From Elephas maximus (Eukaryota), in assembly GCF_024166365.1 (NCBI RefSeq), contig NC_064841.1:46567680-46631679 (forward strand): a DNA stretch of 64,000 bases, written 5' to 3'. The position numbers and the translations under genes are program-made. Shown here piece after piece: positions 33,476-36,380 of this stretch (within the stretch, counting starts at the first letter, position 1; every line of letters begins with the position of its first letter). The notes below the pieces were generated by a model. It was not told the origin of the DNA. It did no database searches and saw only the letters and a program-made list of their open reading frames with translations.

Positions 33476-35195
33476 TGTTGTTAGGTGCCATTGAGTCAGT
33501 TCTGACTCATAGAGACCCCCTATGTACCACAGAACAAAACACTACCCAGTCCCGCACCATCCTTACAATCATTGTTATACTTGAGCTCATTGTTGCAGTC
33601 CCTGTGTCAATCCATCTCATTGAGGGTCTTCCTCTTTTCCGCTGACCCTGTACTTTACCAAGCATGATATCCTTCTACAGGGAATGATCCCTCCTGACAA
33701 CATGTCCAAAGTATGTTAGACACAGTCTCGCAATCCTTGCTTCTAAGGAGCATTCTGGTCGTACTTCTTCCAAGACAGATTTGTTCATTCTTTTGGCAGT
33801 CCGTGGTATATTCAATATTCTTCTCCAACACCATAATTCAAAGGTGTCAATTCTTCGGTCTTCCTTATTCATTGTCCAGCTTTCACATGCATATGATGCG
33901 ATTGAAAATACCATGGCTTGGGTCGGGCGCACCTTAGTCTTCAAGGTGACGTCTTTGCTTTTCAATACTTTAAAGAGGTCTTTGCAGCACATTTGCCCAA
34001 TGCATCTTTTGATTTCTTGACTGCTGCTTCCATGGCTGTTGATTGTGGATCCAAGTAAAATGAAATCTTTGAAAACGTCAACCTTTTCTCCATTTATCAT
34101 GATGTGACTTATTGCTCCAATTGTGAGGATTTTTGTTATCTGTATGTTGAGGTGTAATCCATATTGAAGGCTATGGTCTTTGATCTTCGTTAGTAGTGCT
34201 TCAAGTCCTCTTCACTTTCAGCAAGCAAGGTTGTGTCACCTGCATAACACAGGGTGTTAATGAGTCTTCCTCCAATCCTCATGGCCTGTTCTTCTTCATA
34301 TAGTCTGGCTTCTCAGATTACTTACTCAGCATACAGTTTGAATAGCTATGGTGAAAGGATACAGCCCTGACACACACCTTTCCTGACTTTAAAGCACTCA
34401 GTATCCCCTTGATCTGTCCCAACAACTGCCTCTTGATCTATGTAAAGGTTCTTCATGAGCACAATTAAGTGTTTTGGAATTCCCGTTCTTTGCAATGTTA
34501 TCCATAAATTGTTATGATCCACACAGTCGACACAGTAGACACAAGGCCTTTGCATAGTCAATATAATACAAGTAAACATCCTTCTGGTATTCTCTGCTTT
34601 CAGCCAGGGTCCATCTGACATCAGCAATGATAAACCTGGTTCCACATCCTCTTCTGAATCCAGCCTGAATTTCTGGCAGTTCCCTGTCAATATAATGCTG
34701 CAGCTGCTTTTGAATGATCTTCAGCAAAATTTTGCTTAGGTATGGTATTAATGATATTGTTCGATAATTTCCGCATTTGGTTGGATCACCTTTGTTAGGA
34801 ACTGGCATAAATATGGATCTCTTCTGGTTGGTTGGCCAGGTAGCTGTCTTCCAGATTTCTTGGCATAGACGAGTGAGTACTTCCAGTGCTGCAGCCGTTT
34901 GTTGAAACATCTCAATTGATATTCCATCAATTCCTGGAGCCTTGTTTTAAACCAATGTCTTCAGCACAGCTTGGACTTCTACCTTCAGTATCACAGGTTC
35001 CTGATCCTATGCTACCTCTTGAAATGGTTGAACATCGACTAATTCTTTTTGGTATAATGACTCTGTGTATCTCTTACACCTTCTTTTGATGCTTCCTGTG
35101 TTGTTTAATATTTTCCCCATAGAATCCTTCACTATTGCAACCCAAGGCTTGGATTTTTCCTTCATTTGCTGATATGGCATTACTCAAAGTGAGAA
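33476..35195 (-). mobile_element. RTE/BovB-type LINE 3' portion (RT domain, C-terminal domain, 3' tail), sense on the minus strand
   Basis: Minus-strand ORFs: …EIWKTATWPTNQKRSIFMPVPNKGDPTKCGNYRTISLIPYLSKILLKIIQKQL… (RT), …FDCVDHNNLWITLQ…, …CESWTMNKEDRRIDTFELWCWRRILNIPRTAKRMNKSVLEEVRPECSLEARIARLCLTYFGHVVRRDHSL. These are characteristic BovB/RTE motifs. Confidence 0.85.
33675..34100 (-). CDS. RTE ORF C-terminal fragment (141 aa; not a complete gene)
   Basis: WCWRRILNIPRTAKRMNKSVLEEVRPECSLEARIARLCLTYFGHVVRRD matches the conserved BovB/RTE C-terminal region. Confidence 0.8.
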   Translation of the reverse strand: MINGEKVDVFKDFILLGSTINSHGSSSQEIKRCIGQMCCKDLFKVLKSKDVTLKTKVRPTQAMVFSIASYACESWTMNKEDRRIDTFELWCWRRILNIPRTAKRMNKSVLEEVRPECSLEARIARLCLTYFGHVVRRDHSL

Positions 35196-36380
35196 GAAAC
35201 AGCTGCAAACATCCATTAAAAATTGAAACATGCAATGTATGAAGTATGAATCCAGGAAAATTGGAAACTGTCCAAAATGAAACGGAACACATAAAAATCA
35301 TTAGTGAGCTGAAATGGACTGGTATTGGCCATTTTGAATTGGACAATTATATAGTCTACTATGCCGGGAATGACACCTTGAAGACAAATGGTGTTGCATT
35401 CATCATCAAAAAGAGTATTTCGAGATCTATCCTGACGTACAATGCCGTCAGTGATAAGATAATATCCATACGCCTACAAAGAAGACAAGTCAATAAGACT
35501 ATTATTCAAATTTACGCACCAACCACTAAGGCCATAGATGAAGAAACTGAAGATATTTATCCACTTCTGCAGTCTGAAATTGATCGACCATGCAGTCGGG
35601 ATGCATCGATAATTACTGGTGATTTGAATGCAAAAGCTGGAAACAAAAAAGGATCACTGGTTGGAAAACATGGCCTTGGTGATAGAAAAAATGCTGGAGA
35701 CCGAATGATAGAATTTTGCAAGACCAACGACTTCTTCATTGCAAACACCTTTTTTCACCAACATAAACAGTGGCTATACACATGGACCTTGCCATATGGA
35801 ATACACAGGAATCAAACCGACTATCTGTGGAAAGAGAGTATGGAAAAGCTCAATATCGTCAGTCAGAACAAGGCCAGGGGCTGACTGTGGAACAGATCGT
35901 CAATCGCTCGTATGGAAGTTGAAGTTGCAACTGAAGAAAACCATAGCAAGTCTACAAGAGCCAAAAGGCGACCTTGAGTATATCCCACCCGAATTTAGAG
36001 ACCATCTCAAGAATAGATTTGACGCATTGAACGCTAGTGACCAAAGACCAGACAAGTTGTGGAATGACATCAAGGACATCATACATGAAGAAATCCAGAG
36101 GTCACTGAAAAGACAGAAAGAAAGACCAAGATGGCTGTCACAGGAGGCTCTGAAACTTGCTCTCGAACATCGAGCAGCTAAAGCAAAAGGAAGAAATGAT
36201 GAAGTAAAAGAACTGAACAGAAGACTTCAAAGGGCAGCTCGAGAAAACAAAGTATTATAATGACGTGTAAAGAGCTGGAAATAGAAAACCAAAAGTGAAG
36301 AACACACTCAGTGCTTCTCAAGCTGAAAGAACTGAAGAAAAAATTCAAGCCTCTTGCTCATATAGTCTATGTTAATTAGA
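35196..36380 (+). mobile_element. RTE/BovB-type LINE 5' portion (5' end, AP-endonuclease domain, linker), sense on the plus strand, i.e. inverted relative to the adjacent 3' portion
   Basis: Plus-strand ORFs MNPGKLETVQNETEHIKIISELKWTGIGHFELDNYIVYYAGND…IQIYAPTT…ITGDLNAKAG… (endonuclease) and …LKLALEHRAAKAKGRNDEVKELNRRLQRAARENKVL..CKELEIENQK.RTHSVLLKLKELKKKFKP (linker; one frameshift). Confidence 0.8.
35246..35884 (+). CDS. RTE apurinic/apyrimidinic-endonuclease-like domain ORF (212 aa; partial)
   Basis: LINE endonuclease motifs (IQIYAPT, GDLNA) and collinearity with the BovB N-terminus. Confidence 0.8.
   Translation: MNPGKLETVQNETEHIKIISELKWTGIGHFELDNYIVYYAGNDTLKTNGVAFIIKKSISRSILTYNAVSDKIISIRLQRRQVNKTIIQIYAPTTKAIDEETEDIYPLLQSEIDRPCSRDASIITGDLNAKAGNKKGSLVGKHGLGDRKNAGDRMIEFCKTNDFFIANTFFHQHKQWLYTWTLPYGIHRNQTDYLWKESMEKLNIVSQNKARG

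What the first reader, a model, noticed from the sequence alone, without database searches (positions are those of the whole stretch)
33476..36380. RTE/BovB element with its 5' half inverted relative to its 3' half, abutting at the same element coordinate: a twin-priming-like structure in a non-L1 LINE
The plus strand from 35196 to ~36380 encodes the RTE 5' end, AP-endonuclease and linker, ending …RENKVL..CKELEIENQK.RTHSVLLKLKELKKKFKPLAHIVY. The minus strand from ~35190 down to 33476 encodes linker, RT, C-terminal domain and 3' tail, beginning …KSKPWVAIVKDSMGKILNNTGSIKRRCKRYTESLYQKEL. By homology to BovB (…IRDIKGTFHAKMGTIKDRNGKDLTEAEEIKKRWQEYTEELY…), the inverted piece ends and the sense piece begins within about 10 codons of each other, with a slight overlap. 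Read on the minus strand, the layout is [inverted 5' segment][sense 3' segment, tail]. This is the signature of twin priming described for L1. Alternatively it is an inversion with a breakpoint in the linker.
Basis: partly seen in the sequence, partly recalled or inferred. Interest (0 to 1): 0.6.

Follow-up and report, generated by a model that had tools for sequence, protein, structure and literature searches.

The report
Half-inverted RTE jumping-gene copy (twin priming)
A dead copy of an elephant-type RTE retrotransposon has its front part flipped relative to its back part, and every detail fits one faulty insertion by "twin priming", a mechanism so far documented essentially only for L1 elements; four more such RTE copies turned up in a small sample of elephant and manatee DNA.

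Summary
I used a full-length Loxodonta RTE1 copy (L001 9804-13038, 3235 nt) as the ruler. Window 35159-36353 (+) is element 342-1567. Window 35164-33471 (-) is element 1547-3235 plus an AACAACAAAAAC tail.

- The two pieces touch with no filler and share a 5-nt microhomology (TGAAG).
- 15-21 nt of the element are present in both pieces.
- The pieces are equally diverged (9.2% vs 8.4%, p=0.49).
- The composite is flanked by a 10-bp target-site duplication. Both flanks rebuild an older 5'-truncated RTE copy (B) into which it inserted.

The layout is [TSD][rc(Y..X)][X'..end, tail][TSD], which is the twin-priming signature.

In about 100 kb of fetched elephant and manatee DNA I found four further independent 5'-inverted RTE1 copies. 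Their breakpoints differ, and three have clear 10-12-bp TSDs. The event therefore looks recurrent.

No paper in the searchable library reports twin priming for RTE/BovB. One paper states that 5' inversion is nearly restricted to L1 in human cells.

Verdict: a real, well-explained fossil of aberrant retrotransposition. The mechanism is known but the LINE clade is new. Interest is moderate.

The parts
36353..36362 (-). Upstream (5') copy of the target-site duplication. It reads TATGAGCAAG on the minus strand. Base 36353 could equally be element position 1567, a 1-nt microhomology.
   Evidence: 8/10 identical to the copy at 33460-33469. It lies within 36353-36367, which continues host element B in register (13/15).
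35159..36353 (+). Inverted 5' segment of RTE1 copy A, element positions 342-1567. It holds the AP-endonuclease domain and linker and is 5'-truncated (no 5' UTR, no first 48 codons).
   Evidence: 85.2% to L001 10145-11370, sharp homology boundaries. (Exo_endo_phos, 23.4 bits, just under the cut-off). (76% aa identity to the Loxodonta RTE-derived protein P0009).
35160..35164 (.). Inversion junction. The 5-nt microhomology TGAAG (minus strand) could derive from either piece: element 343-347 read in reverse complement, or element 1547-1551. There is no filler DNA.
   Evidence: alignment of both pieces with three reference copies at element 315-375 and 1525-1600.
33471..35164 (-). Sense 3' segment of RTE1 copy A, element positions 1547-3235. 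It holds the linker end, reverse transcriptase, C-terminal region and 3' UTR, and ends in the tail AACAACAAAAAC (33471-33482). One extra G (33470) precedes the TSD.
   Evidence: 87.7% to L001 11356-13038. (RVT_1, 102.8 bits). The (CAA)n tail matches what PMC6007223 reports for RTE1_LA.
36333..36353 (+). Copy 1 of the element stretch present twice (element 1547-1567): TGAAGAAAAAATTCAAGCCTC.
   Evidence: It is 18/21 identical to copy 2, as expected for two copies made from one RNA that have each since diverged by about 8-9% from the reference copies.
35144..35164 (-). Copy 2 of the duplicated element stretch: TGAAGGAAAAATCCAAGCCTT on the minus strand.
33460..33469 (-). Downstream (3') copy of the target-site duplication. 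It reads TATGAAGAAG on the minus strand and is also element 2398-2407 of host copy B.
32636..33469 (-). Host element B, an older 5'-truncated RTE1 copy (element 2398-3230) into which A inserted. Its first 15 nt (element 2393-2407) lie on the other side of A at 36353-36367.
   Evidence: 85.2% to L001. B has 11.6% private differences vs 7.45% for A over the same region (p=0.005), so B is older; 13/15 register match.
36353..36367 (-). The 5'-most 15 nt of host element B (GACTATATGAGCAAG on the minus strand), separated from the rest of B by the insertion of A.
   Evidence: Reference copies read GACTATATGAAGAAG at element 2393-2407.

Best explanation
Copy A is the product of one aberrant retrotransposition of an afrotherian RTE1 RNA by twin priming. 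The steps below are inferred from the anatomy, using the model established for L1.

1. The RTE endonuclease nicked the bottom strand inside an older RTE copy (B). That 3' end primed reverse transcription from the (CAA)n end of the RNA.
2. The top strand was cut 10 bp downstream. Its freed 3' end (...TATGAAGAAG-3') annealed inside the same RNA near element position 1567. It primed a second cDNA that ran towards the RNA's 5' end and stopped at position 342.
3. The first cDNA ran up to and 15-21 nt past the second priming site, ending at position 1547.
4. After RNA removal the two cDNA 3' ends paired through a 5-nt complementarity (TGAAG/CTTCA) and were filled in and ligated.

The result, read on the minus strand, is TSD - reverse complement of 342..1567 - 1547..3235 - tail - TSD. 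The copy was dead on arrival and has since acquired about 9% substitutions plus frameshifts. It has no function.

Shown directly: the anatomy, TSD, microhomology, duplication, equal age, nesting in B, and recurrence in other copies. Inferred: the order of events and the identity of the primers.
For: Anatomy of copy A:
- The two pieces are in opposite orientation and abut with no filler. Element coordinates are 342-1567 and 1547-3235.
- The layout matches twin priming. The outer end of the inverted piece (1567) matches the inner start of the sense piece (1547).
- A 10-bp TSD flanks the whole composite, and the flanks rebuild host element B in register (13/15, P about 9e-7). RTE TSDs peak at 10-12 bp (PMC4245944 and PMC6007223, citing Ichiyanagi & Okada 2008).
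- There is a 5-nt microhomology at the inversion junction. Microhomology at this junction is a feature of L1 5' inversions (PMC2912911).
- The pieces are equally diverged: 9.24% vs 8.44% private differences, p=0.49. Against L001 alone the figures are 12.5% vs 10.8%, p=0.19.
- The two copies of the duplicated 21 nt differ at 3 positions, consistent with one source RNA and the age of the copy.

Recurrence, with different breakpoints:
- L004: rc(1-200)+177-3230. Perfect TSD GACATAAGGT. 8-nt target/RNA microhomology. The duplicated stretch is identical in both copies over the 23 nt compared.
- L007 main: rc(2-77)+~103-3235, TSD 10/12.
- L007 older: rc(1-~120)+1843-3235, TSD 9/10.
- L005/L006: an orthologous manatee/elephant copy, rc(~228-1330)+1310-....
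Against: - Microhomology between the target 3' end and the internal priming site is only 1 nt in copy A. About 70% of L1 inversions have 2-5 nt (PMC2912911). L004 has 8 nt.
- The two TSD copies differ at two adjacent positions (GC vs AG), which is slightly odd for independent point mutations.
- No empty orthologous site for A could be fetched, so 'one event' rests on the reconstruction from host element B.
- Only a few reference copies, not a curated consensus, were available. Coordinates could shift by a few nt.
- The mechanism has never been shown experimentally for an RTE-clade element.
Confidence: 0.9

Rival explanations
1. Post-insertion inversion. A 5'-truncated RTE1 copy (342-3235) inserted normally into B. 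Later a 1.2-kb segment (342-1567) was inverted by breakage and end-joining.
For: The same two orientations would result. Microhomology at a junction is also typical of end-joining repair.
Against: One breakpoint would have to fall within 0-1 bp of the element/TSD boundary at 36353, so that no target DNA was inverted. A simple inversion does not duplicate 15-21 nt of the element. Four other RTE1 copies show the same layout, with the inverted segment always starting exactly at the TSD. Random later inversions would not respect that boundary.
Confidence: 0.05
2. Twin priming on two different RTE RNA molecules. The top-strand 3' end primed on a second RNA rather than internally on the RNA already being copied.
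For: It would explain without strand displacement why 15-21 nt are copied twice. The L007 older copy has breakpoints 1.7 kb apart.
Against: With independent RNAs there is no reason for the end of the inverted piece and the start of the sense piece to coincide. They lie within 25 nt of each other in four of five events: A, L004, L005/L006 and L007 main. The two copies of the duplicated stretch are compatible with one template (identical in L004).
Confidence: 0.04
3. Two independent RTE insertions in opposite orientation that happen to be adjacent, the plus-strand one having later lost its 3' part.
For: RTE1 is very abundant in elephants (about 194,000 copies, PMC6007223). Copy A itself sits in another RTE copy.
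Against: The plus-strand piece has no 3' end or tail, which TPRT always delivers. The breakpoints coincide within 21 nt. The pieces abut without filler. A single 10-bp TSD flanks both and rebuilds host element B. Divergence is equal.
Confidence: 0.01
4. Assembly artefact: a mis-oriented segment in the assembled sequence.
For: The window's source and sequencing technology are unknown. Repeats are prone to misassembly.
Against: The junction shows microhomology, a duplicated stretch that has since diverged (18/21), and a TSD in the expected places. An assembler error would not create these. The same layout occurs in independent chromosome-level assemblies of two species.
Confidence: 0.01

Closest known systems
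5'-inverted L1 insertions made by twin priming (Ostertag & Kazazian 2001; surveyed by Kojima 2010, PMC2912911)
   Same: The layout is the same: TSD - inverted upstream segment - sense 3' segment with tail - TSD. The inversion point shows a small duplication or deletion and microhomology. There is no filler at the 5' junction. The TSD is of the element's normal length.
   Different: The element is an RTE-clade LINE: single ORF, no ORF1, (CAA)n tail instead of poly(A), 10-bp rather than about 15-bp TSD. In copy A the target/RNA microhomology is only 1 nt. In three of five RTE1 events the second priming site lies within the first 200 nt of the RNA.
Single 5'-inverted Nimb-2_DR insert in chicken DT40 cells (Yamaguchi et al. 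2014, PMC4245944)
   Same: It is a non-L1 LINE showing a 5' inversion. Nimb-2_DR also makes about 12-bp TSDs. This fits that paper's idea that a long enough 3' overhang is needed for the second priming.
   Different: That was one event in a cell-culture assay of a zebrafish element. The paper concludes that 5' inversion is otherwise confined to L1 in human cells. Here the copies are natural germline copies of an RTE-clade element in afrotherian mammals, and they seem frequent.
Ordinary 5'-truncated RTE1_LA insertions in the elephant genome (Gilbert et al. 2008, cited in PMC6007223; Ohshima and co-workers 2018)
   Same: Same element family, same (CAA)n tail and same TSD length class (10-12 bp). 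Host copy B and several bystander copies are of this ordinary kind.
   Different: Copy A carries an additional upstream segment in reverse orientation, which ordinary TPRT with 5' truncation does not produce.
5'-inverted Alu, SVA and mRNA retrocopies mobilised by L1 in trans (Kojima 2010, PMC2912911)
   Same: They show that twin priming is a property of the reverse-transcription and target complex, not of the L1 RNA sequence.
   Different: Those still use the L1 ORF2 protein. Here the enzyme must be the RTE protein, because the tail and TSD are RTE-type.

Membership tests
5'-inverted LINE insertion (twin-priming product) | Two segments of one element in opposite orientation, directly adjacent | tested here: met
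   35159-36353 (+) and 33471-35158 (-), abutting at 35158/35159.
5'-inverted LINE insertion (twin-priming product) | The inverted segment lies upstream of the sense segment, and the sense segment carries the 3' end and tail | tested here: met
   read on the minus strand, the order is rc(342..1567) then 1547..3235 then AACAACAAAAAC.
5'-inverted LINE insertion (twin-priming product) | The outer (3'-most) coordinate of the inverted segment is close to the 5' coordinate of the sense segment (small duplication or deletion) | tested here: met
   1567 vs 1547, a duplication of 15-21 nt.
5'-inverted LINE insertion (twin-priming product) | One target-site duplication of the element's usual length flanks the whole composite | tested here: met
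   10 bp, 8/10 identical. The flanks rebuild host RTE copy B (13/15 in register, P about 9e-7).
5'-inverted LINE insertion (twin-priming product) | Microhomology at the inversion junction | tested here: met
   5 nt, TGAAG.
5'-inverted LINE insertion (twin-priming product) | Microhomology between the target 3' overhang and the internal priming site on the RNA | tested here: inconclusive
   only 1 nt in copy A (base 36353). In L004 it is 8 nt.
5'-inverted LINE insertion (twin-priming product) | Both segments of equal age | tested here: met
   9.24% vs 8.44% private differences, p=0.49; 12.5% vs 10.8% to L001, p=0.19.
5'-inverted LINE insertion (twin-priming product) | Two reverse-transcription reactions primed from the two ends of one staggered break (the mechanism itself) | not testable with these tools
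   This needs a retrotransposition assay or in-vitro TPRT with the RTE protein.
RTE-clade LINE, afrotherian RTE1 (RTE1_LA-like) | Single ORF with an N-terminal AP-type endonuclease and a reverse transcriptase | tested here: met
   the rebuilt 909-aa protein aligns over 100% of its length to full-length RTE ORFs carrying PF03372/PF14529/PF00078. RVT_1 scores 102.8 bits; Exo_endo_phos scores 23.4 bits, just under the cut-off.
RTE-clade LINE, afrotherian RTE1 (RTE1_LA-like) | Nucleotide similarity to elephant RTE1 copies along the whole length | tested here: met
   85-88% to Loxodonta copy L001; the closest proteins are RTE-derived models from Loxodonta and Elephas.
RTE-clade LINE, afrotherian RTE1 (RTE1_LA-like) | (CAA)n microsatellite-like 3' tail and TSD of about 10-12 bp | tested here: met
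   tail AACAACAAAAAC. TSD 10 bp. Expected values are from PMC6007223.
RTE-clade LINE, afrotherian RTE1 (RTE1_LA-like) | Match to the curated Repbase/Dfam consensus RTE1_LA and subfamily assignment | not testable with these tools
   No repeat library is available. Genomic copies served as references.
L1-clade LINE | Poly(A) tail, ORF1, about 15-bp TSD | tested here: not met
   the tail is (CAA)n-like, there is a single RTE-type ORF, and the TSD is 10 bp. The copy is therefore not an L1, although it behaves like a 5'-inverted L1.

The most novel reading that the evidence does not exclude
Twin priming is a regular outcome of RTE-clade retrotransposition in afrotherian genomes, affecting tens of percent of long copies. 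The second priming site often lies in the first 200 nt of the RNA, and a 15-30-nt stretch is often copied twice at the inversion point. If so, 5' inversion is not an L1-specific trait. It would depend on the length of the target overhang (about 10 nt or more) and on mammalian host factors, as Yamaguchi et al. (2014) hypothesised.
Probability: 0.55. Interest if true: 0.6.

Novelty: new member of a known kind. Interest (0 to 1): 0.5.

Why it matters
5' inversion is used as a hallmark of L1-mediated insertion. The one comparative experimental study in the searchable library (PMC4245944) concludes that it depends on features of L1 and of human cells.

Clear, TSD-flanked 5'-inverted copies of an RTE-clade element show that a second, distantly related LINE enzyme can do the same in mammals. 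This element has a single ORF, no poly(A) tail and a 10-bp TSD.

- Mechanism: it supports the idea that the decisive factor is a long enough 3' overhang at the target, not L1 itself.
- Testable data: elephants hold about 194,000 RTE1 copies, and L1 in the same genome serves as an internal control.
- Annotation: adjacent opposite-strand RTE fragments with abutting coordinates should be joined as one insertion when counting or dating RTE copies.
- Function: the copy itself has none.

Tried and rejected
- Self-comparison of the window found only one other RTE copy (B), so a consensus could not be built from the window.
- Pfam on single ORF fragments gave only sub-threshold hits. The frameshift-corrected translation was needed.
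- Looking up window ORFs to find the source contig or orthologous loci found nothing on record.
- Loci for P0040 and P0047 (Elephas) were not on record.
- Key papers are not held: Ostertag & Kazazian 2001; Ichiyanagi et al. 2007; Ichiyanagi & Okada 2008. I therefore cannot exclude that the 2008 TANT study mentions RTE inversions.
- I considered that the inverted piece continues beyond 36353 (CTTGCTCATATAGT vs element CGAGTTGCAATAGT). I rejected this because it needs gaps, whereas the same bases match host element B 13/15 without gaps.
- I considered that the short inverted 5'-UTR pieces in L004 and L007 are separate insertions of a 5'-UTR-related short repeat. Such repeats exist (window 55270-55454, L001 14453-14666). 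I rejected this because the TSDs flank the composites.
- I checked for a TP53 retrogene, since RTE1_LA flanks those in elephants. There is none.
- ARAGORN found no tRNA-like gene in the SINE-like stretch 36380-36900.
- The TSD of the ancient L005/L006 copy could not be resolved.
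Full report
**What is in the window.**
The region is decayed mammalian repeat DNA.
- The frameshift-corrected translation of plus strand 35246-36352, joined to that of minus strand 35140-33500, gives a 909-aa protein.
- That protein aligns over its whole length to full-length RTE-clade ORFs carrying endonuclease and reverse-transcriptase domains.
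- The RT half scores 102.8 bits on Pfam RVT_1. The EN half scores 23.4 bits on Exo_endo_phos, just under the cut-off.
- The closest proteins are RTE-derived gene models from Loxodonta africana and Elephas maximus, at 76-87% identity.
- The element is therefore an afrotherian RTE1 copy, which I call A.

**Reference and coordinates.**
No repeat library was available, so I fetched genomic copies.
- L001 (Loxodonta, via protein P0009) holds a full-length RTE1 at 9804-13038. Its TSD is GACTAGGGTCA/GACTGGGGTCA and its tail is (CAA)n.
- Two other copies start at the same base.
- I use this 3235-nt copy as the ruler.
- blastn gives window 35159-36353 (+) = element 342-1567 at 85.2%.
- blastn gives window 33471-35158 (-) = element 1553-3235 at 87.7%.
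- Alignment with three references extends the sense piece to element 1547 (window 35164).
- The boundaries are sharp.
However, the junction is about 35 bp left of where it was placed, and the right end is 36353 rather than 36380.
- The inverted piece lacks the element's first 341 nt.

**Junctions.**
All sequences here are read on the minus strand.
- The sequence runs...GACTA TATGAGCAAG | AGGCTTGAATTTTTTCTTCA... (rc of 1567 down to 342) ...CAGCAAA TGAAG GAAAAATCCAAGCC... (1547 onward) ...CACCTAACAACAAAAAC G TATGAAGAAG AATGGGGC....
- The two pieces share TGAAG, a 5-nt microhomology. It reflects a 5-nt inverted complementarity between RNA positions 343-347 and 1547-1551. There is no filler.
- Element 1547-1567 is present in both pieces, and the two copies are 18/21 identical.
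- After allowing for the microhomologies, the duplication is 15-21 nt.

**Target site.**
- Immediately after A's tail comes a second RTE copy, B (window 33469-32636 = element 2398-3230).
- The 15 nt on the other side of A (window 36367-36353, GACTATATGAGCAAG) match element 2393-2407 (GACTATATGAAGAAG in the references) at 13/15 in exact register. The chance probability is about 9e-7.
- A therefore inserted into B, 5 nt from B's truncated 5' end, and duplicated 10 bp (TATGAAGAAG, now 8/10).
- This is the usual RTE TSD length (PMC4245944, PMC6007223).
- B is older than A. Private differences are 11.6% for B vs 7.45% for A over the same region (p=0.005).
- B has its own plausible TSD at 36372-36382 and 32624-32635.

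**Age of the two pieces.**
- At sites where L001 and L004 agree, the inverted piece differs at 9.24% +/- 0.87 and the sense piece at 8.44% +/- 0.71 (Fisher p=0.49).
- Without CpG sites the figures are 8.4% vs 8.0% (p=0.72).
- Against L001 alone they are 12.5% vs 10.8% (p=0.19).

**Interpretation.**
- The layout is TSD - rc(Y..X) - X'..end - tail - TSD, with X about equal to X'. It has microhomology at the inversion junction and no inverted target DNA. This is the twin-priming signature described for L1 (summarised in PMC2912911 and PMC4245944).
- A later inversion would need a breakpoint exactly at the element/TSD boundary and would not duplicate 15-21 nt.
- Two independent insertions are excluded by the single TSD, the missing 3' end of the plus-strand piece and the coincident breakpoints.
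- The duplicated stretch implies that the first cDNA was extended 15-21 nt past the second priming site. Strand displacement is my inference for how that happened.

**Recurrence.**
The loci fetched as references unexpectedly contained more cases.

| Copy | Structure (element coordinates) | TSD | Other features |
|---|---|---|---|
| L004 (Loxodonta) | rc(1-200) + 177-3230 | GACATAAGGT, perfect 10 bp | 8-nt microhomology between target and RNA (CATAAGGT / ACCUUAUG); the duplicated stretch (16-24 nt after allowing for microhomologies) is identical in both copies |
| L007 main (Loxodonta) | rc(2-77) + ~103-3235 | 10/12 | 25-nt deletion at the inversion point |
| L007 older | rc(1-~120) + 1843-3235 | 9/10 | 1.7 kb missing between the pieces |
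| L005/L006 | rc(~228-1330) + 1310-... | not resolved | Orthologous in Trichechus inunguis and Loxodonta (collinear flanks), so older than the elephant-manatee split |

- Among eight RTE1 copies of 1 kb or more in these loci, four are 5'-inverted, three are collinear and one (L003) is odd.
- The sample is tiny and was chosen through annotated EN-containing proteins. The rate is therefore only indicative.
- The different breakpoints show independent events.

**Literature.**
- Searches pairing twin priming with RTE, BovB, Bov-B or CR1 found no report of RTE-clade 5' inversion.
- Papers on RTE1_LA and Bov-B insertion signatures do not mention inversions.
- Yamaguchi et al. 2014 found 5' inversions only for L1 in human cells, plus one Nimb-2_DR insert. 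They proposed that a short overhang prevents the second priming. RTE's 10-bp TSD fits that idea.
- The 2001, 2007 and 2008 primary papers are not held, so earlier mention elsewhere cannot be excluded.

**Verdict.**
It is a known mechanism seen in a LINE clade for which I found no prior report, and it appears recurrent in afrotherians. Copy A itself is a functionless fossil.

Noticed in passing
L004 5780-9027 (Loxodonta africana CM057421.1): A second, younger RTE1 copy with a 5' inversion: rc(element 1-200) + 177-3230. It has a perfect 10-bp TSD GACATAAGGT and an 8-nt microhomology between the target and the RNA at the start codon. The stretch copied twice is identical in both copies.
   Followed up: yes
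L007 4021-5641 and 5656-8808 (Loxodonta africana CM057420.1, SNX24 locus): Two adjacent RTE1 copies, both 5'-inverted. One is rc(2-77)+~103-3235, with TSD 10/12 and a 25-nt deletion at the inversion point. The other is rc(1-~120)+1843-3235, with TSD 9/10 and 1.7 kb missing between the pieces.
   Followed up: yes
L005 11983-14926 (Trichechus inunguis) and L006 9901-12700 (Loxodonta, YBX1 locus): An orthologous ancient 5'-inverted RTE copy, rc(~228-1330)+1310-..., shared by manatee and elephant. Its EN part is annotated as coding sequence ('craniofacial development protein 2-like', 'Y-box-binding protein 1 isoform X1'). The TSD was not resolved.
   Followed up: partly
L003 5637-8002 (Loxodonta africana CM057422.1): An RTE1 copy with an unexplained structure. 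Sense element 3-1894 is followed directly by rc(1922-2004) and then by an older rc(2752-3168). It has no 3' end. This is not the twin-priming layout.
   Followed up: no
window 32636-33469 and 36353-36382; 32624-32635: Host element B is an older 5'-truncated RTE1 copy split by A only 5 nt from its 5' end. A plausible TSD of B is GGTCTAATTAA / GGTTCTAACTGA on the minus strand (10 matches, 1 gap).
   Followed up: partly
window 36520-36810 (minus strand): Two tandem SINE-like copies with a tRNA-like head and an RTE-like 3' region (GCTATGAGTCGGAATCCACTC...). From memory of the family they look like AfroSINEs. ARAGORN calls no tRNA there. 36660-36749 matches a repeat in L001.
   Followed up: no
window 55270-55454 (-); L001 14453-14666 and 18076-18163: Short repeats homologous to the RTE1 5' UTR (element ~7-211). 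In L001 one is followed by the RTE1 3' tail (3145-3235). This suggests a non-autonomous, internally deleted RTE1 derivative.
   Followed up: no
L005 7439-9884 vs L006 ~7352-7380: A manatee-specific RTE insertion (element 744-3223) with the empty site preserved in the elephant orthologue. It shows RTE activity after the sirenian-proboscidean split.
   Followed up: no
L002 3001-6045 (ENA assembly ERZ25069412); protein P0070: An intact 1014-aa RTE ORF (P0001) sits between gag/protease-like and RT/RNaseH/integrase-like genes of an LTR-retrotransposon-like cluster in an unidentified eukaryotic contig. Separately, an RTE-like protein (P0070) is annotated in a 2.3-kb contig of the bacterium Sinisalibacter lacisalsi, probably contamination.
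   Followed up: no
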